A program made the translations under genes and the position numbers. Below, in pieces: positions 39,359 through 43,914 of a stretch of DNA of 48,989 bases. The DNA is from a virus. Taxonomy: Duplodnaviria; Heunggongvirae; Uroviricota; Caudoviricetes. Location: the IMG/VR virus record IMGVR_UViG_2541047945_000011, one strand, 5' to 3'. Numbering within the stretch: position 1 is the first letter of the stretch; the number at the start of each line of letters is the position of its first letter. The notes under the pieces are model-generated. The model was not told the origin of the DNA. It did no database searches and was given only the letters and a program-made list of their open reading frames with translations.

Positions 39359-40187
39359 GGTTTACCCCCTTGCTGACTGGTTTAACCTGCGCCCTGACGT
39401 GATTTACGTGACGGGCGAATTTCTGCTCCCACTGAATCTGAGTAAACACTTTCCCCTCCGCTGCCCAGTAGTCCCGGAAGGCGGCAAGTTCAGCAGGTGT
39501 AAATTCTGTCTCCGGCAAAGCCATCCCCCACAACGCAGCCCGTCGTCGAAAATCCCGTGACGGATACCAGCTATCGGTCATCGGAAATTTTCCGATGGGT
39601 TCGCTCAGGCCATCCAGGAATACAAGGGGTGCTGCCTGTAACGACAAAACTTCCTGCTCACTGGTCGGAGCACTCTCGCGTGCGTTATGTGTGGGGTTTA
39701 GATCTTTGGGTTCCTTTGGGTTCCGTGATCCGTTTTTGGGTGTCTTTGATGGAAAATTTGGGTGTCTTTGGTTATTTTCCATGCAGCTAAGAGTTCCGTT
39801 TTTGGGTCTGTTTTGTGCTGAAACATAACCATTTTCGGTACTGTTTTTATTAACAGCACCAATTTTACCCACCTTTAAAGACTCCCGTTTTTGGGTGTAT
39901 TCAGGCTCGGCAACACTTTCTTCTACACCGATAAGTCGGTACACCACAATTTGCTTTGTTCTGCCTTTTCTCTCACCGGTATCAACAATTAACCCAATCT
40001 CCATCAGGTGTCGTAAGCTGTCCTGCACAGTCTTTTTGTTTAGTTCCGTTACTTCTGCCAGTGCAGATACAGACGGGTATGCACACAAATCGGCACCGCA
40101 CATATCAGCAAGCCAGGTCAATACAGACTTACTGGATGAACTGCCGGTTTTCACCTTTTTAGCCCATCGTAGTGCATCGATACTCAT
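39147..40187 (-). CDS. O: Replication initiator O-like protein with internal origin iterons
   Basis: N-terminal HTH replication-initiator domain; iteron-encoded PKNG-rich linker; ATG at 40187 with AGGGG RBS. Its 3' end overlaps P by about 210 nt in another frame. Confidence 0.7.
   Translation of the reverse strand: MSIDALRWAKKVKTGSSSSKSVLTWLADMCGADLCAYPSVSALAEVTELNKKTVQDSLRHLMEIGLIVDTGERKGRTKQIVVYRLIGVEESVAEPEYTQKRESLKVGKIGAVNKNSTENGYVSAQNRPKNGTLSCMENNQRHPNFPSKTPKNGSRNPKEPKDLNPTHNARESAPTSEQEVLSLQAAPLVFLDGLSEPIGKFPMTDSWYPSRDFRRRAALWGMALPETEFTPAELAAFRDYWAAEGKVFTQIQWEQKFARHVNHVRAQVKPVSKGVNHAAAPGGTASRAVQEIRAAREQWERENGFISDGNGLEAVGTHGGGLFEPLDPEERGRTFEALDCTDWRDD
39698..39900. repeat. ori: Replication origin iterons followed by an AT-rich segment, inside O
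   Basis: At least four copies of CGTTTTTGGGTGTCTTTG-like repeats (39735-39748, 39753-39773, 39796-39817, 39885-39900) and an AT-rich stretch at 39818-39870. Confidence 0.7.
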
Positions 40188-40710
40188 ACAAACCCCTGGC
40201 AGACATTTGTTTATCTGCAAAGTAATATTGATATTGCTGACGATACGCATGCTTGAAAGCAATAGCTTTTTCTATAAGCTCGTCAGTCTCACGTTCCACA
40301 ACAGCTGGATCCGCAAAAAGCAGCCCGGACTCCACCACATCGCCATATTCTTTGTTTAATCCGGCGATCATGTACGTAATGCTTTTTCCATCACTGATCT
40401 CACGATACAACCTGAAATCACTAATTCGGATAGCCTCCATAATTGCCGGAATCAGCGCCGTGAATTTTTTCCGCTTATCCCTGGTGTCGATAGCTTTCCA
40501 GCGTTCGAATATCTTCACCCGGTTAACGCCCAGCGCCCGTTGATCAACCTCGCCATCATTAAACGTGACGCGTTGAACATCGATGTTCGGGCGTTCTTTC
40601 AGAGCCCAGAATGCTTCCGTGATTAATATCGTCGCTTGCTCCTGTGTCATTCCTGGTCGACATACCCAGGCATCCAGAGCCTCACAAACCTGTTCAGGGG
40701 TGATTTTCAT
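40159..40710 (-). CDS. YdaT-like protein (candidate CII-analogue regulator)
   Basis: 183 aa in the cII position between cro-like and O; ...KKFTALIPAIMEAI... resembles Rac YdaT from memory. Confidence 0.45.
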   Translation of the reverse strand: MKITPEQVCEALDAWVCRPGMTQEQATILITEAFWALKERPNIDVQRVTFNDGEVDQRALGVNRVKIFERWKAIDTRDKRKKFTALIPAIMEAIRISDFRLYREISDGKSITYMIAGLNKEYGDVVESGLLFADPAVVERETDELIEKAIAFKHAYRQQYQYYFADKQMSARGLYEYRCTTMG

Positions 40711-40921
40711 TGTTCAACCGCCCCGCCCGCTTTGCCTTACGATATTCGTCATAAACTTTGGGGTCGTACTGAAGTTCCCCGACGGATGCCTCTTGCAGGC
40801 GCATCGCGCGACCTTCAGGAACCAGTTCCCCCCATTGAGAAACAGCAGATGGATCAACACCAGCAGCTTTCGCTACTTTGGCTTTCGTCCCATAAAAATT
40901 AATTACGTCTGATTTAAACAT
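40694..40921 (-). CDS. dicC: Cro-like repressor (DicC/YdaS-type HTH)
   Basis: ATG at 40921 with GGAGG RBS; ...GTKAKVAKAAGV...VSQW...VPEGRAMRLQEAS.GELQYDPKVY; divergent from the repressor. Confidence 0.75.
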   Translation of the reverse strand: MFKSDVINFYGTKAKVAKAAGVDPSAVSQWGELVPEGRAMRLQEASVGELQYDPKVYDEYRKAKRAGRLNNENHP

Positions 40922-40998
40922 CACCCCTCCAAAGTTGAGTTTTCTCAATAGTAATCATTCAAGGAATCTCAAGTCAAGGGTTATTAAGATATCTAAAT
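40922..40998. promoter_or_regulatory. Divergent operator/promoter region (OR-like) between the cro-like and repressor genes
   Basis: Inverted repeat TTGAG-TTTT-CTCAA at 40935-40948 and related half-sites; 77-bp intergenic space. Confidence 0.5.
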
Positions 40999-41406
40999 AT
41001 GAACGAGAAAACTTTAGGTCAACGAATTAGAGAAAGACGCAAACAGGTTGGTTTAAGTCAAAACGATTTAAGCAAAGCCGCTGGCGTATCTGGCTCATCA
41101 ATTTCACTATGGGAAAGCGACCATACAGCCCCGCGCGGGCAAAATTTGCATCGCCTGGCTGAGGTATTGCAATGTTCACCAACTTGGATACTGTTTGGTG
41201 ACGAGGATAAAACACCAGATCCACCAGTAGCACTCAACAGCGCCTTAGACTTATCGGAAGATGAGTTGGAGATGTTGCGATTGTATCGCGCACTTCCAAA
41301 ATCAGAGCAGCAAGCACAAATCAGCGAACTCCGTGCCCGCGTTGAGAATTTTAATCGCCTATTCACCGAGCTACTAGAAGCTCGCAAACGTAACAAACAT
41401 CAGTAA
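40999..41406 (+). CDS. dicA: DicA-type prophage repressor (HTH-XRE, no S24 peptidase domain)
   Basis: 135 aa; ...GQRIRERRKQVGLSQNDLSKAAGVS...SLWE...LHRLAEVLQCSPTWILFGDEDK...ELRARVENFNRLFTELLEARKRN matches Qin DicA from memory. Confidence 0.85.
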   Translation: MNEKTLGQRIRERRKQVGLSQNDLSKAAGVSGSSISLWESDHTAPRGQNLHRLAEVLQCSPTWILFGDEDKTPDPPVALNSALDLSEDELEMLRLYRALPKSEQQAQISELRARVENFNRLFTELLEARKRNKHQ

Positions 41407-41467
41407 CCCCCTTCACAAATTTTAAAGCCTTACATTTCAATGTATTGGCTTTATTTTGCATTAAATA

Positions 41468-41519
41468 TTGAGTTTTCTCATTAAAAATGCTTGACCAACA
41501 TTCACGAGAAAACTAAATT
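41468..41519 (+). promoter_or_regulatory. PL-like early promoter with operator copies (TTGACC-17 nt-TAAATT)
   Basis: Operator-like TTGAGTTTTCTCA at 41468-41480, -35 TTGACC at 41491-41496, -10 TAAATT at 41514-41519, second operator-like GAGAAAACTAA in the spacer. Confidence 0.45.
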
Positions 41520-41595
41520 ACCACCCATCAAGACACCGCACGGTGTTCTCAGCAAACAGTTCCGCTACCCGGCGTTAAGGGGTAATGAGGTCAGC

Positions 41596-41748
41596 ATGGA
41601 TACTATCGATCTTGGCAACAGCGAATCTCTGGTATGTGGTGTGTTCCCCAACCAGGACGGCACATTCACCGCCATGACGTATACCAAAAGCAAAACGTTT
41701 AAAACCGAAGCTGGCGCGCGTCGCTGGTTAGCAAGAAACTCCGACTGA
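41596..41748 (+). CDS. ydfA: YdfA-like small protein (50 aa), first gene of the dicB-type early operon
   Basis: ATG at 41596 with GAGG RBS; MDTIDLGNSESLVCGVFPNQDGTFTAMTYTKSKTFKTEAGARRWLARNSD. The track's longer ORF starts at a TTG inside the promoter. Confidence 0.55.
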   Translation: MDTIDLGNSESLVCGVFPNQDGTFTAMTYTKSKTFKTEAGARRWLARNSD

Positions 41749-42098
41749 TGAGGTTGACGATGGAATTTAAAGATTTACCTCCTTCAATCCAGGAGATTGC
41801 AGCACACACACTTCGTCATCGTCTGAACGAACTTGAATTGGAATCGGTAACAAAAAAAGACACTGATAATATGGCTCGTAATGTGCGCGATGCGTTTACT
41901 GGGCTGTTTTCAGATACAGCTTTAAATATCCATGGCACAGAGGATACAGCAAAACAATTTGCAGAAAAAGAAGTGGAAGATCCCAGTTCAAAGAGCCAGA
42001 AACAGCCAAACAACCATGAAATTAACGAACTGCTTCTGGCAACAGGCTTCATAAATATTAACGAATATGAACGCCGTAAAAAAATGTTATCTGATTAA
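41748..42098 (+). CDS. Hypothetical acidic helical protein (116 aa)
   Basis: Start overlaps the ydfA-like stop (TGATG); no recognised family. Confidence 0.5.
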   Translation: MRLTMEFKDLPPSIQEIAAHTLRHRLNELELESVTKKDTDNMARNVRDAFTGLFSDTALNIHGTEDTAKQFAEKEVEDPSSKSQKQPNNHEINELLLATGFININEYERRKKMLSD

Positions 42099-42281
42099 TC
42101 CATCAAGATATCTTTTTAGCATCAGCGTTTCTACGTTATTAAAACCATCAGATTTTAACATAGCTTCGATTCGCTGATTTAAATTGCCAACTAACTGTTG
42201 ATACTGAGTAGATGGAAGCATGTGTACCAGCTCCTTGAGAACACAATAACATGCACCAAGTTTTAACTCCTGCTCTGACAT
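42087..42281 (-). CDS. Hypothetical small protein (64 aa), convergent to the early operon
   Basis: ATG at 42281 with GGAGGA RBS; AT-rich codons; MSEQELKLGACYCVLKELVHMLPSTQYQQLVGNLNQRIEAMLKSDGFNNVETLMLKRYLDGLIR. Confidence 0.45.
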   Translation of the reverse strand: MSEQELKLGACYCVLKELVHMLPSTQYQQLVGNLNQRIEAMLKSDGFNNVETLMLKRYLDGLIR

Positions 42282-42619
42282 TTTATCCTCCATTGAGGTT
42301 ACTGGTTGAGAATGGAGACCTCTCGTGACAGCGTGTGGTCGTGCGCCGGACACGGATAAGAATCCGGCACTGACAGTTTACTGAAAGGATATTTCCATGA
42401 AAAGTCAGACCATAACGCGAAAGCGCACGGCGAGGTAGCTGGTTCATAGATAGCCTGTCGTTAAATTTTCGTCGACCGTGCGCTTCCGGTTGTGACACTC
42501 CGCGAAATGGCGCGGCGGTAAGTATGACGGGGTTATTCCTTCCCCGTTGAGGACACCGGGTTGTCAGGTTGACCATACGCTTAAGTGACAACCCCGCTGC
42601 AACGCCCTCTGTTATCAAT

Positions 42620-42677
42620 TTTCTGGTGACTTTTGGCGGTATCAGTTCTACTCCGTGACTGCTCTGCCGCCCTTTTT
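42620..42677 (+). ncRNA. dicF: DicF small RNA
   Basis: TTTCTGGTGACTTTTGGCGGTATCAGTTCTACTCCGTGACTGCTCTGCCGCCCTTTTT matches Qin DicF from memory; sits between the ydfA-like genes and dicB as in Qin. Confidence 0.8.
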
Positions 42678-42965
42678 AAAGTGAATTTTGTGATGCGGTG
42701 AATGCGGCTCAGCGCACGCGGAACAGTTAAAACAAGCGGTCTTTTACGGGCGTAACGGGAATGCTCTGTATCCGACGTTAATTGTTAACTGGTTAACGTC
42801 ACCTGGAGGCACCAGGCACCGCATCAACAAAGTTCACTTCGGTGATGAAAGGTAGAGAAAATGTTGAATGTAGCTATTGAAAACCAGAACGGGTGGAATT
42901 ATAGTGCACCTGCACCTCATAAAACGGGTGCCGGGCGTGGAAACCCGAAATCATTCACGGCGCAT

Positions 42966-42988
42966 AACCGCGCTCAGGCGGTTTTTTT
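42966..42988 (+). terminator. Putative intrinsic terminator in the leader upstream of rha
   Basis: AACCGC-gctcag-GCGGTT followed by TTTTTTTA. Confidence 0.4.
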
Positions 42989-43157
42989 ATGCGTTAAGCA
43001 CAGCCACATTCGCATTATGGTGGGGCGTGCAGGGCAGCCGCAAGGCTGGCCGGGTTCCGTGATGACCGGTATTTCCACCCCTGTACGTCTCACCACCCTT
43101 ATGGTCGTGGAAAACCTCGGTGGTGAGTTAATCAAATTCATCGCGGAGGCTGCCATC

Positions 43158-43715
43158 ATGGCTACTATCCTTACCCTTTCTCACCCTGACGTAACCATCG
43201 AAAATGGTCGCGCTGTCACTACGTCTGTTGCGATCGCCGAGTTCTTTGGCAAACGCCACGAACGAGTGTTGGATAAAATTCGCAATCTGGACTGTTCAGC
43301 AAAATTCACTGAGCACAATTTTGTGTCAAGCGAATACACCGACTCAACCGGGCGCAAACTCCCAATGTACCAAATCACCAAAAACGGCTTCGTTTTCCTG
43401 GTGATGGGCTTCACTGGCAAAAAAGCCGCTGCATTTAAAGAGGCATACATTGCTGAGTTCGACCGCATGGAAGCAGAACTGCGCCAGAATAACGCCCCGT
43501 CTCCCGACAAAATGATTCACGGGGACGGACGCACCCTGGTTATCCGTCTCGACGAACACGGCAATATCAAATTCACTGAAACCGTTCCTGACGGCGCAAT
43601 GGTCTGCACCCTGGATACCTTCCGGTTTTATCTGGAGAAACAAGGATGGACTCTTGTAAACCGGAGCGCAATTAAAAATATGACTGTGGAGCAATTGCTA
43701 AAAATTCATTGTTGA
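43158..43715 (+). CDS. rha: Rha-family phage regulatory protein
   Basis: ATG at 43158 with GGAGG RBS; ...TTSVAIAEFFGKRHERVLDKIRNL...YQITKNGFVFLVMGFTGKKAAAFKEAYIAEFDRMEAEL matches the Rha domain. The track's N-terminal extension was rejected. Confidence 0.7.
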   Translation: MATILTLSHPDVTIENGRAVTTSVAIAEFFGKRHERVLDKIRNLDCSAKFTEHNFVSSEYTDSTGRKLPMYQITKNGFVFLVMGFTGKKAAAFKEAYIAEFDRMEAELRQNNAPSPDKMIHGDGRTLVIRLDEHGNIKFTETVPDGAMVCTLDTFRFYLEKQGWTLVNRSAIKNMTVEQLLKIHC

Positions 43716-43725
43716 GGACGCGATA

Positions 43726-43914
43726 ATGGAAACGTCACTACCAAACGTTAATACGTCTGAAGGTTGTTTTGATATTGGTGTTCTGCTCAGTAACCGGGAG
43801 TTTACGGAAGATGCCATTAAGATGAGAAAATATGAACCTTATCTTCTCAATGATAATTCCATACTTTCCAGAATTGCCCTTCTTGAACTTGGTATTATCG
43901 GAGAACAGCAGTGA
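43726..43914 (+). CDS. dicB: Cell division inhibitor DicB
   Basis: 62 aa; METSLPNVNTSEGCFDIGVLLSNREFTEDAIKMRK... matches Qin DicB. Confidence 0.8.
   Translation: METSLPNVNTSEGCFDIGVLLSNREFTEDAIKMRKYEPYLLNDNSILSRIALLELGIIGEQQ

What the first reader, a model, noticed from the sequence alone, without database searches (positions are those of the whole stretch)
40922..41520. DicA/DicC-type immunity switch: repressor lacks a LexA-like autocleavage domain
The repressor is 135 aa with an HTH and a helical C-terminus but no S24 peptidase domain. The cro-like gene is DicC-like. Operator-like inverted repeats (TTGAGTTTTCTCA) occur both in the divergent region and in front of the PL-like promoter. Induction therefore probably does not work by RecA-stimulated self-cleavage, and may rely on an antirepressor or other signal; a rha gene is present downstream.
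Basis: partly seen in the sequence, partly recalled or inferred. Interest (0 to 1): 0.4.

Follow-up and report, generated by a model that had tools for sequence, protein, structure and literature searches.

The report
DicA-type phage switch without self-cleavage
This is the on/off switch of an E. coli lambda-like prophage, whose short repressor cannot cut itself and is most likely switched off by a small partner protein (Rem); this design has already been described for the Qin prophage and phage mEp460.

Summary
Window 40922-41520 contains a 135-aa repressor gene (40999-41406). It has a P22-C2-like helix-turn-helix domain and a ~50-residue conserved C-terminal module, and no S24 peptidase domain. 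It is transcribed divergently from a DicC/Cro-like gene. Operator palindromes (ATTGAG-N4-CTCAAT) sit at the cro-side promoter and around the -35/-10 of the leftward promoter dicBp.

The design is already known. The repressor is 56% identical to K-12 DicA and 96% identical to the repressor of temperate phage mEp460. Published work shows that DicA lacks the cleavage site and is inactivated by the antirepressor Rem.

I found no LexA box at rem, so its trigger remains unknown.

An IsrK/C4 antisense-RNA cassette precedes it, as in P1 immI and Gifsy-1 isrK-anrP. The C4 loop co-varies with a target overlapping the rha ribosome-binding site. The whole cassette lies between dicF and dicB.

The Rha C-terminal domain shows weak but consistent profile similarity to the Rem family. 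That makes Rha a plausible second antirepressor, untested.

Verdict: ordinary and already explained, with one modest new lead.

The parts
40694..40921 (-). dicC-like cro gene (75 aa), first gene of the rightward early operon
   Evidence: ORF. Pfam P22_Cro 2.7e-17. 69% identical to K-12 DicC. RefSeq names it 'dicB transcriptional regulator DicC'.
40948..40977 (-). Promoter-like site for dicC (TTGACT-18-TACTAT), the PR analogue
   Evidence: Consensus scan, 9 of 12 matches. Its -10 abuts the operator at 40935-40948.
40935..40948 (.). Operator TTGAGTTTTCTCAA, the positional equivalent of K-12 Oc; it lies 14 nt upstream of the dicC start codon
   Evidence: Exact motif. Same position as K-12 Oc TTGTTAGTCATAACTAACAA, which binds DicA in vivo (PMC3441716). 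Conserved in mEp460. Heteroimmune relatives have a different palindrome at the same place.
40999..41406 (+). DicA-type repressor gene (135 aa): P22-C2-like HTH domain (residues 1-72), variable linker, and conserved C-terminal LPxSE module (about residues 86-135). No S24 domain.
41005..41017 (.). Weak fourth operator-like copy (CGAGAAAACTTTA) over codons 3-6 of the repressor gene; possibly a site for negative autoregulation
   Evidence: Shares the 9-mer core and an 18-nt direct repeat with the dicBp-proximal operator (D4). Its function is inferred only.
41467..41482 (.). Distal leftward operator ATTGAGTTTTCTCATT, just upstream of the -35 of dicBp
   Evidence: Conserved in mEp460. K-12 and other immunity types carry their own palindrome at this position.
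41491..41519 (+). dicBp, the PL analogue (TTGACC-17-TAAATT), driving ydfA - dicF - (rha) - dicB
   Evidence: Consensus scan. Aligns with the K-12 dicBp region. dicBp is the DicA-repressed promoter in K-12 (PMC10448788).
41503..41518 (.). Proximal leftward operator (CACGAGAAAACTAAAT) between the -35 and -10 of dicBp
   Evidence: (I2, I5). The equivalent K-12 site is ATGTTAGTCATGGCTAATCT.
34257..34508 (-). rem, the homologue of the proven DicA antirepressor (83 aa)
   Evidence: 93% identical to K-12 Rem. RefSeq names it 'protein Rem'. 92% identical to mEp460 Rem. Rem derepresses dicBp 165-fold in K-12 (PMC10448788).
34587..34656 (-). Terminator-like hairpin (34656-34639) followed by a promoter-like site (TTGAAG-18-TAGAAT, 34616-34587) upstream of rem. 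No LexA box here.
   Evidence: The region is 99% identical to K-12. The LexA matrix scan finds nothing here.
42621..42672 (+). DicF small RNA
   Evidence: Rfam RF00039, 71.5 bits against a gathering score of 48.
42877..42905 (+). Promoter-like site of the isrK-C4-rha cassette (TTGAAA-17-TATAGT)
   Evidence: Best consensus match in 40600-43800, 10 of 12. It ends 7 nt before the IsrK 5' end.
42912..42988 (+). IsrK-like small RNA with its own terminator; it contains the upstream C4 target b1 (42951-42960)
   Evidence: Rfam RF01394, 67.7 bits against 50. Weak c4-a1b1 match at 42899-42951. Terminator. Best predicted duplex with the C4 core. Covariation.
43013..43100 (+). C4-type antisense RNA
   Evidence: Rfam RF01695, 81.9 bits against 45. 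Fully compensatory stem changes and loop/target covariation across L005 and L006.
43138..43149 (+). Downstream C4 target b2 (TCATCGCGG), overlapping the Shine-Dalgarno sequence GGAGG of rha
   Evidence: Second-best predicted duplex with the C4 core. Co-varies with the C4 loop in three loci.
43158..43715 (+). rha (185 aa): N-terminal Phage_pRha domain (residues 21-105) plus a ~65-aa C-terminal domain with weak Rem-family similarity. A candidate RNA-gated antirepressor.
   Evidence: Pfam. PHROG families named anti-repressor, and phrog_340. Codon-position bias begins at 43158.
43726..43914 (+). dicB (62 aa), cell-division inhibitor; the last known gene of the DicA-repressed operon
   Evidence: Pfam DicB 9.5e-37.
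40159..40710 (-). cII-like / YdaT-family gene downstream of dicC
   Evidence: Pfam YdaT_toxin 2.3e-5. PHROG 'CII-like transcriptional activator' 7e-42.

Best explanation
This is the immunity switch of a complete lambdoid E. coli prophage of the Qin/mEp460 (DicA/DicC) type.

The 135-aa repressor joins a P22-C2-like DNA-binding domain to a short conserved C-terminal module. That module presumably serves dimerisation and partner binding. There is no protease domain.

Repressor dimers are predicted to bind ATTGAG-N4-CTCAAT operators at three main places. One covers the -10/+1 of the dicC (cro-side) promoter. Two bracket the -35/-10 of dicBp. Binding would silence both early operons, and the dicC-side site probably also supports the repressor's own weak promoter. 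DicC acts as the Cro-like counter-repressor.

Because the repressor cannot self-cleave, induction most likely goes through Rem. This 83-aa antirepressor is encoded 6.5 kb away in the nin region behind its own terminator and promoter. Rem would bind the repressor and remove it from DNA. The signal that turns rem on is unknown, and no LexA box was found at rem. Rem-independent flipping of the DicA/DicC bistable switch is a second route.

Basis of each step:
- Shown here: domain content, operators, gene order, and the presence and conservation of rem.
- Shown elsewhere for K-12 DicA: repression of dicBp, binding to Oc, antagonism by Rem, and recA-independent switching of dicBp. That the repressor stays uncleaved during induction was shown for the related Gifsy repressors, not for DicA.
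- Inferred: that all of this transfers to this 56%-identical repressor.
For: Repressor domains and absence of a protease:
- Only HTH families are found, and PDB matches cover residues 1-72 only.
- None of 120 listed homologues (mostly 133-135 aa) carries S24.
- The C-terminal LPxSEQ...NFN.LF module is conserved across 26 family members.

Relationship to known systems:
- 56% identical to K-12 DicA, 96% to the mEp460 repressor, and 69% to DicC.
- Synteny with Qin.

Operators:
- The core 9-mer occurs 5 times against 0.40 expected, with 4 copies inside the switch.
- The sites are positionally homologous to K-12 Oc and the dicBp sites.
- Five heteroimmune relatives each have their own palindrome at the same positions.

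Rem:
- 93% identical to K-12 Rem, with a 99% identical upstream region.
- All 15 phage records that encode Rem are ones carrying the dicA/dicC-type region.

The prophage has full head, tail, lysis, Q and replication modules.

Literature: PMC10448788 reports that DicA lacks the Ala-Gly bond, that Rem derepresses dicBp 165-fold, and that recA-independent switching occurs; it also notes that mEp460 carries DicA and Rem. PMC3441716 reports that DicA binds Oc. PMC3121763 describes Gifsy repressors that are not cleaved and names DicA and RacR as members of the same group.
Against: - Nothing was tested experimentally for this allele.
- The HTH half differs substantially from K-12 DicA. Rem specificity is therefore only inferred, from the conserved C-terminal half and from co-occurrence.
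- No inducing signal can be assigned. The only strong LexA-like box lies inside the replication gene, not at rem.
- In K-12, spontaneous, urea-induced and stationary-phase dicBp activity was Rem-independent (PMC10448788). Rem may therefore not be the main physiological route.
- RefSeq flags the integrase as frameshifted, so the prophage may not complete excision.
Confidence: 0.75

Rival explanations
1. The Rha-family protein (43158-43715), not Rem, is the working antirepressor of this repressor. It would be made when the IsrK/C4 RNA gate opens. Its C-terminal Rem-like domain would bind the repressor's conserved C-terminal module. This does not exclude Rem; the two could act together.
For: - The Rha N-domain hits several PHROG families named anti-repressor.
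- The C-terminal domain hits phrog_340, the family that holds Rem. Four variants hit it at E 1.3e-6 to 5e-4, on the same profile columns as Rem relatives.
- A bridging protein, P0137, has a Rem-like N-half and a Rha-C-like C-half.
- The cassette is a validated P1-immI/Gifsy-1-type antirepressor control unit (PMC4825925).
- Among 80 IMG/VR loci with this C-terminal domain, 52 have, as the nearest ORF upstream of ydfA, a short repressor (129-162 aa) carrying the shared C-terminal module. No S24-sized repressor was seen at that position.
Against: - Direct BLAST of Rem against Rha finds nothing.
- The profile-profile comparison is weak: probability 9.7%, E 0.003.
- Foldseek against BFVD gives no hit, and the Rem model has low confidence.
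- HMMER over 1.84 billion proteins found no Rha-fused Rem relative.
- mEp460 and K-12 have the same class of switch without this cassette.
- Rha-N cassettes with other C-termini sit next to other repressor types: a LexA-family protein in L005 and a 230-aa XRE-family regulator in L006.
- The co-occurrence may simply reflect linkage to the ydfA-dicF-dicB operon.
Confidence: 0.3
2. Induction is mainly antirepressor-independent. The DicA/DicC bistable switch would flip stochastically or under stresses that weaken repressor binding (heat, urea), with DicC then locking the lytic state.
For: In K-12, about 1% of cells switch dicBp on spontaneously. This is independent of recA and rem. Urea and high temperature induce it, partly through DicC (PMC10448788). 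DicA binds Oc less well at 37 C than at 25 C (PMC3441716). The window has the full DicC/operator architecture.
Against: Rem is conserved at 92-93% in a functional phage and in this prophage, with its own promoter. That argues it is used. Stress-driven flipping was measured for a cryptic prophage lacking dicBF, not for a complete phage.
Confidence: 0.3
3. The repressor is inactivated by RecA-stimulated self-cleavage through a cryptic catalytic site.
For: None was found. The N-terminal domain is homologous to that of P22 C2, which is a self-cleaving repressor.
Against: - Only about 63 residues follow the HTH domain.
- No S24 match appears in Pfam, PDB sequence or PDB profile searches.
- No homologue carries S24.
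- The linker has no Ala-Gly or Cys-Gly.
- The related Gifsy repressors stay intact during induction (PMC3121763), and dicBp switching in K-12 is independent of recA (PMC10448788).
Confidence: 0.02
4. The locus no longer controls phage induction. It would be a domesticated host module that only regulates dicF and dicB, as in Qin.
For: RefSeq flags the integrase as frameshifted. dicF-dicB modules are retained in most E. coli genomes (4673 of 5426 genomes have a match).
Against: The window holds a complete 48-kb lambdoid genome with terminase, portal, capsid, tail, lysis, Q, O/P-like and recombination genes. The switch is 92% identical in DNA to that of the viable temperate phage mEp460 (PMC9836094).
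Confidence: 0.1

Closest known systems
Qin cryptic prophage DicA / DicC / Rem of E. coli K-12
   Same: Same gene order: dicC | dicA - ydfA - dicF - dicB, with rem next to hokD. The repressor is 135 aa with the same two-part build and is 56% identical. DicC is 69% identical and Rem 93%. The operators sit at the same three positions.
   Different: The operator sequence differs (ATTGAG-N4-CTCAAT against TTGTTAGT-N4-ACTAACAA), as do the HTH specificity residues, so the two are presumably heteroimmune. The prophage here is complete, whereas Qin is a remnant. An isrK-C4-rha cassette lies between dicF and dicB here and is absent in K-12.
Temperate phage mEp460 immunity region
   Same: The repressor is 96% identical, the operators are the same, the switch DNA is about 92% identical, and Rem is 92% identical. 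The two are presumably homoimmune.
   Different: mEp460 lacks the isrK-C4-rha cassette. It also has a different replication module, without the LexA-like box.
Gifsy-1/2/3 repressors GfoR/GtgR/GfhR with antirepressors GfoA/GftA/GfhA (Salmonella)
   Same: These are short repressors that are not cleaved and are inactivated by small antirepressors encoded outside the immunity region, downstream of the replication genes and behind a terminator-like hairpin. The authors list DicA as a member of the same repressor group (PMC3121763).
   Different: The Gifsy antirepressor operons carry a LexA box and a dinI homologue. No LexA box or dinI was found at rem here. I did not measure sequence identity to the Gifsy proteins.
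P22 C2 repressor
   Same: The N-terminal DNA-binding domain is homologous (E 2e-15; profile 1.2e-23). From my own recollection, the operator layout of short half-sites around a 4-bp spacer resembles the P22 operators.
   Different: P22 C2 is 216 aa and has an S24 self-cleavage domain. This protein stops after a 50-residue module (PMC10448788).
P1/P7 immI (c4-icd-ant) and Gifsy-1 isrK-orf45-anrP
   Same: The cassette upstream of rha has IsrK and C4 RNAs above the Rfam thresholds. The C4 loop is complementary to one site upstream and one site over the ribosome-binding site of the downstream gene. Loop and targets co-vary between loci. A partial terminator after IsrK matches the Gifsy-1 description (PMC4825925).
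   Different: Here the small upstream ORF is in frame with rha rather than separate. The cassette sits inside the DicA-repressed left operon. This C-terminal domain was not found in the Salmonella enterica species representative by the pattern scan, so Gifsy-1 AnrP probably differs there. Antirepressor activity and target are unknown.
Coliphage 186 Tum and N15 AntC
   Same: Both are antirepressor-based induction systems for non-cleavable repressors (cited in PMC3121763).
   Different: Both are LexA-controlled and unrelated in sequence as far as tested. No similarity appeared in any search here.

Membership tests
DicA/GfoR-class short phage repressors (controlled by antirepressors) | N-terminal Cro/C1-type HTH DNA-binding domain | tested here: met
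   Pfam HTH_3 1.2e-16. P22 C2 N-terminal domain 2e-15.
DicA/GfoR-class short phage repressors (controlled by antirepressors) | Short length (about 130-160 aa) with no S24 peptidase domain and no hinge cleavage site | tested here: met
   135 aa with no S24 match in Pfam or PDB. None of 120 listed homologues has PF00717. No Ala-Gly or Cys-Gly in residues 68-88.
DicA/GfoR-class short phage repressors (controlled by antirepressors) | Sequence homology to DicA over the full length, including the conserved C-terminal module | tested here: met
   56% identity over 128 residues, E 2e-51. The LPxSEQ...NFN.LF...ARKR module is conserved in 26 sequences and is shared by seven or more HTH types.
DicA/GfoR-class short phage repressors (controlled by antirepressors) | Divergent cro-like partner, with repeated palindromic operators at both early promoters | tested here: met
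DicA/GfoR-class short phage repressors (controlled by antirepressors) | Represses the early promoters by binding the operators | not testable with these tools
   Inferred from positional homology to K-12 Oc and the dicBp operators (PMC3441716, PMC10448788).
DicA/GfoR-class short phage repressors (controlled by antirepressors) | Stays intact on induction and is inactivated by a cognate antirepressor protein | not testable with these tools
   The rem homologue is present at 93% identity. Rem antagonism of DicA was shown only for K-12 (PMC10448788), and lack of cleavage only for the Gifsy repressors (PMC3121763).
LexA / lambda CI / P22 C2 self-cleaving repressors (Peptidase S24) | C-terminal S24 domain with a Ser-Lys dyad | tested here: not met
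   No S24 hit at E up to 0.01 in Pfam. No LexA-like chain in the PDB searches. Only about 63 residues follow the HTH domain.
LexA / lambda CI / P22 C2 self-cleaving repressors (Peptidase S24) | Ala-Gly (or Cys-Gly) scissile bond in the hinge | tested here: not met
   The hinge DEDKTPDPPVALNSALDLSEDE has none. The only Ala-Gly is inside the HTH.
Rem/GfoA small antirepressors (the gene at 34257-34508) | Close homology to a Rem protein with demonstrated activity, in the same genomic position | tested here: met
   93% identical to K-12 Rem. It lies next to hokD, behind the same terminator and promoter region, which is 99% identical.
Rem/GfoA small antirepressors (the gene at 34257-34508) | LexA-controlled promoter (the Gifsy/186/N15 subtype) | tested here: not met
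   The LexA matrix scan finds no site between hokD and rem. The nearest weak site, at 35131-35150, scores 14.7, within the range of shuffled sequence.
c4/IsrK-gated antirepressor cassette (P1 immI, Gifsy-1 isrK-anrP) | C4-type antisense RNA and IsrK RNA upstream of the regulated gene | tested here: met
   Rfam C4 81.9 bits (gathering score 45) and isrK 67.7 bits (gathering score 50).
c4/IsrK-gated antirepressor cassette (P1 immI, Gifsy-1 isrK-anrP) | C4 loop complementary to target sites, one of which covers the ribosome-binding site, with covariation | tested here: met
   The best two predicted duplexes are at 42932-42961 and 43129-43158. Loop, b1 and b2 change together in the window, L005 and L006. 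The Rfam c4-a1b1 model alone is below threshold: 25.7 bits against 46.7.
c4/IsrK-gated antirepressor cassette (P1 immI, Gifsy-1 isrK-anrP) | The downstream protein is an antirepressor | tested here: inconclusive
   There is a Rha N-domain, PHROG families named anti-repressor, and weak Rem-family similarity. Structural support is lacking, and activity cannot be tested here.

The most novel reading that the evidence does not exclude
The Rha-family protein is a fusion of a Rha N-domain with a Rem-like antirepressor domain. It would target the conserved C-terminal LPxSE module shared by many heteroimmune short repressors.

The gene is gated by IsrK/C4 RNA and embedded in the very operon that the repressor silences. 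It would therefore act as a positive-feedback commitment device. Read-through from the derepressed dicBp would titrate C4 and release more antirepressor.

It could also cross-induce other DicA-class prophages (Qin, Rac and their relatives) in the same cell.
Probability: 0.25. Interest if true: 0.5.

Novelty: already known. Interest (0 to 1): 0.22.

Why it matters
As it stands, the result matters little. It is a correct reading of a switch whose logic was published for Qin DicA/Rem in 2023 and for the Gifsy phages in 2011. A near-identical copy exists in the sequenced phage mEp460.

It does have practical value for annotation:
- rem should be recognised as the antirepressor partner wherever a DicA-class repressor is found.
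- The 284-aa 'Rha' coding sequence, and the 'Ash' protein family match within it, cover two RNA genes rather than protein.

The one lead worth a bench test is the Rha protein between dicF and dicB. This arrangement occurs in about 7% of complete E. coli genomes. If Rha is a second, RNA-gated antirepressor of this repressor class, it would link a P1-type antisense immunity circuit to lambdoid induction and to cell-division control.

Tried and rejected
1. Cryptic peptidase domain. I looked with Pfam at E up to 0.01, PDB phmmer, PDB profile searches of the whole family and of the C-terminal module alone, and the precomputed domains of 120 homologues. Nothing was found.

2. SOS control. A LexA matrix built from 21 E. 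coli SOS boxes that I recalled from memory found no site at rem, at the isrK promoter or in the switch. The single strong site (21.3 bits, 39839-39858) lies inside the O-like replication gene among the iterons.

3. Direct Rem-Rha homology. BLAST was negative. hhalign was weak. A Rem profile search over 1.84 billion proteins returned 55 hits, none with a Rha N-domain. AlphaFold models of Rem (pLDDT 58) and Rha-C (pLDDT 68) were too uncertain for a firm comparison. Foldseek against BFVD gave no hit at E up to 0.001. The afdb50 library was unavailable. Only the PHROG profile and one bridging sequence link the two.

4. Rha-C in sequenced phages. There was no tblastn match in 50,697 phage records. 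Among species-representative genomes, only Escherichia and Shigella matched.

5. Exclusive association of Rha-C with DicA-family repressors. This was rejected. The cassette is also found next to other short repressors with different HTH domains, although these share the C-terminal module.

6. Pfam PF27490 (the Rem family) is not in the local Pfam copy, so it could not be scanned against Rha.

Full report
**Context.** The window is an E. coli chromosomal segment holding a complete lambdoid prophage of about 48 kb. The prophage is integrated at a tRNA-Ser gene next to mtfA. The 3.2-kb stretch around the finding (window 40600-43800) is identical or nearly identical in 26 complete E. coli genomes, and one of them (NZ_CM165902.1) supplied the RefSeq annotation of the whole prophage. 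The annotation lists terminase, portal, capsid, tail, lysis, Q, RusA, O/P-like replication, exonuclease, excisionase-like and integrase genes. The integrase is flagged as frameshifted.

**The observation.** ORF 40999-41406 (+) encodes 135 residues, and ORF 40694-40921 (-) encodes 75 residues, read from the ATG at 40921.
- Pfam assigns the first ORF only Cro/C1-type HTH families (HTH_3, 1.2e-16, residues 10-64). It assigns the second to P22_Cro (2.7e-17).
- Against all PDB chains, the repressor matches only through residues 1-72. The best match is the P22 C2 N-terminal domain (2e-15). A profile of 26 family members gives the same picture (1.2e-23). Neither search returns a LexA/S24 chain.
- A profile of the C-terminal module alone finds nothing significant.
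- The 120 listed homologues, from many Enterobacterales genera, are mostly 133-135 aa. None has Peptidase_S24 among its precomputed domains.
- The hinge has no Ala-Gly or Cys-Gly.

The repressor therefore has no autocleavage domain, cryptic or otherwise, as far as sequence methods can tell.

**Identity.** The repressor is 56% identical to K-12 DicA (E 2e-51). The cro-like protein is 69% identical to DicC. The gene order dicC | dicA - ydfA(DUF1391) - ... - dicF - dicB matches Qin. DicF is present at 42621-42672 (Rfam 71.5 bits) and dicB at 43726-43914. The repressor is 96% identical to that of the viable temperate phage mEp460. The switch DNA of mEp460 is about 92% identical and has the same operators (PMC9836094 for its temperate lifestyle).

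**Operators.** The core 9-mer occurs 5 times in 49 kb against 0.40 expected (0 of 100 shuffles reach 5). Four of those copies lie inside the switch. One of the four is a previously unnoticed copy over codons 3-6 of the repressor gene.

The sites are placed as follows.
- Site 40935-40948 lies 14 nt from the dicC start codon and abuts the -10 of a promoter-like site (TTGACT-18-TACTAT). This is exactly where K-12 has Oc (TTGTTAGTCATAACTAACAA). Oc binds DicA in vivo, and point mutations in it abolish binding (PMC3441716).
- The other two sites bracket dicBp (TTGACC-17-TAAATT, 41491-41519). One is upstream of the -35 and one lies between the -35 and -10, as in K-12.

In five further DicA-type loci of other immunity specificities, each has its own palindrome at these same positions. 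Examples are CTTAGATTTTCCTAAG and TTGTTAGATATTCCTAAC. Conserved position with variable sequence is the expected signature of operators that co-evolve with their repressor.

**Mechanism of induction.**
- DicA is shorter than P22 C2 and lacks the Ala-Gly bond.
- Rem, encoded on Qin, derepresses dicBp 165-fold.
- About 1% of K-12 cells switch dicBp on spontaneously, independently of recA and rem.
- The authors note that mEp460 carries both DicA and Rem (all PMC10448788).
- The Gifsy repressors, which are grouped with DicA and RacR, are not cleaved. They are inactivated by small antirepressors encoded downstream of the replication genes (PMC3121763).

The window encodes Rem at 34257-34508 (-). It is 93% identical to K-12 Rem and lies next to hokD/sok. 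A terminator-like hairpin and a promoter-like site precede it, in a region 99% identical to K-12.

All 15 phage records that encode Rem are the ones carrying the dicA/dicC-type region. A LexA matrix scan finds no box at rem. This agrees with the published statement that the Rem-inducing signal is unknown.

**The rha gene.** RefSeq annotates a 284-aa Rha-family coding sequence at 42861-43715. Rfam places an IsrK RNA (42912-42988), a C4 antisense RNA (43013-43100) and a weak c4-a1b1 match inside its first 240 nt. The Pfam Phage_ASH match of that ORF covers the same stretch. The best promoter-like site of the whole region (TTGAAA-17-TATAGT) ends 7 nt before IsrK, and IsrK ends in a terminator.

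I compared the window with two homologous cassettes that are 75-77% identical over the matched stretch (L005, L006).
- Substitutions in 42912-43100 show no codon periodicity (14/12/16 and 15/12/15 at codon positions 1, 2 and 3).
- From 43158 onward, substitutions are concentrated at third positions (19/17/51 and 22/21/60).
- One C4 hairpin shows fully compensatory changes.
- The C4 loop (CCGTGATGA; TCTATGTTGA; TCTTTGGTGA) changes together with both target sites. One target is in IsrK. The other, at 43138-43146, overlaps the GGAGG in front of the ATG at 43158.
- Duplex predictions independently rank these two sites first and second.

So rha most likely starts at 43158 (185 aa). It is translationally gated by C4, as in P1/P7 immI and in Gifsy-1 isrK-orf45-anrP (PMC4825925).

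The cassette (about 42836-43706) is absent from K-12 and mEp460. Both nevertheless retain the last ~20 nt of rha upstream of dicB. The dicF-cassette-dicB arrangement occurs in 386 of 5426 complete E. coli genomes.

**Is Rha an antirepressor of this repressor?** The N-domain (Phage_pRha, residues 21-105) is widespread with different C-termini, and it hits PHROG families named anti-repressor.

Evidence for a Rem-like C-terminal domain:
- The C-terminal domain, about 65 residues, hits phrog_340, which is also Rem's only PHROG.
- Four variants hit it: the window at 1.3e-6 and Shigella and Salmonella variants up to 5e-4. All hit the same profile columns as Rem relatives.
- Protein P0137 combines a Rem-like N-half with a Rha-C-like C-half.

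Evidence that does not support it:
- BLAST is negative.
- hhalign is weak.
- HMMER finds no fused relatives.
- The structural test was uninformative.

I examined 80 IMG/VR loci with this C-terminal domain, 74 of which have a recognisable ydfA. In 52 loci, the nearest ORF upstream of ydfA is a short repressor of 129-162 aa. In one further locus it is a truncated 86-aa version of the 129-aa type. In the remaining loci the nearest ORF is a toxin-like gene, or none was found. These short repressors fall into at least seven HTH types, all ending in an alignable L..E..LL.LF..LP.SE module, and no S24-sized repressor occupies that position.

That pattern fits a shared docking module for antirepressors. 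It could equally reflect linkage of this repressor class to the ydfA-dicF-dicB operon. Rha-N cassettes with other C-termini occur next to a LexA-family protein (L005) and a 230-aa XRE-family regulator (L006). I rate Rha as a plausible but unproven second antirepressor.

**Verdict.** Both describe a known system: Qin DicA/DicC/Rem, the mEp460 immunity region, and the Gifsy class. The additional material is useful for annotation and offers one testable lead, but it does not change the classification. That material comprises the RNA-gated rha cassette inside the repressed operon, its weak Rem-like domain, and the C-terminal module shared across heteroimmune short repressors.

Noticed in passing
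window 42861-43157: The RefSeq 284-aa 'Rha family' coding sequence, and its Pfam Phage_ASH match (residues 14-109), run through the IsrK and C4 RNA genes. Substitutions there show no codon periodicity, unlike the region from 43158 onward. The 'Ash' protein family therefore appears, at least here, to be a translation of RNA genes.
   Followed up: yes
window 43057-43065, 42951-42960 and 43138-43146; L005 and L006, within about 2440-2750: The C4 loop and its two target sites co-vary across three homologous cassettes. One C4 hairpin also shows fully compensatory stem changes. These cassettes therefore appear to form distinct antisense specificity types, as P1 and P7 do.
   Followed up: yes
window 39839-39858: A strong LexA-box-like sequence, TACTGTTTTTATTAACAGCA, scores 21.3 bits against a maximum of 16.2 in shuffles. 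It lies inside the O-like replication gene among iteron-like repeats (39723-39901). It travels with this replication module in many related loci, and L085 has a variant. mEp460 lacks it. Whether LexA touches the origin is unknown.
   Followed up: partly
window 42830-42845 and 43695-43725; L003 8560-8610: K-12 Qin and mEp460 lack the isrK-C4-rha cassette but keep its last ~20 nt (AAATTCATTGTTGA, the end of rha) upstream of dicB. Similar short sequences (CAAAGTTCA / AAAATTCA) flank the cassette in the window. This suggests the cassette-free state arose by deletion.
   Followed up: partly
L007-L086 (IMG/VR loci), ORFs just upstream of ydfA: At least seven different short repressor types (129-162 aa), with unrelated or distant HTH domains, share an alignable C-terminal module (L..E..LL.LF..LP.SE...). 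This is a candidate common handle for dimerisation or antirepressor binding.
   Followed up: partly
window 43683-43715 compared with 34476-34508: The last 11 residues of Rha (MTVEQLLKIHC) resemble the first residues of Rem (MNIEELRKIFC). This could be a recombination scar or a coincidence.
   Followed up: no
window 30377-30566 (-) and 42684-42831 (+): There is a full STnc100 small-RNA match downstream of the Q region (132 bits). A partial, sub-threshold match (35.6 bits) lies between dicF and the rha cassette. That stretch is also conserved in K-12 and mEp460.
   Followed up: no
window 34725-35049 (-): A hokD/sok type I toxin-antitoxin locus lies immediately upstream of rem (Rfam sok 106.7 bits). 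A weak LexA-like site (14.7 bits) lies at 35131-35150, upstream of it.
   Followed up: no
L033, L036, L043, L050, L055, L057, L061, L066, L067 (between the repressor and ydfA): In several related loci, a 95-96-aa ORF beginning MLPxLWL (my reading, untested: ParE/RelE-like toxin) is the nearest ORF upstream of ydfA, between the immunity gene and dicBp-ydfA.
   Followed up: no
window 46931-47956 and 48009-48098: The integrase ORF is 341 aa in the window but is annotated as frameshifted in RefSeq. It abuts the tRNA-Ser(cga) gene, which is presumably the attachment site.
   Followed up: no
window 41421-41460: A stem (AAAGCC ... GGCTTT) with a 17-nt loop and a T-run lies between the repressor stop codon and the distal leftward operator. 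It may be the repressor gene's terminator. The terminator scan missed it because of the loop size.
   Followed up: no
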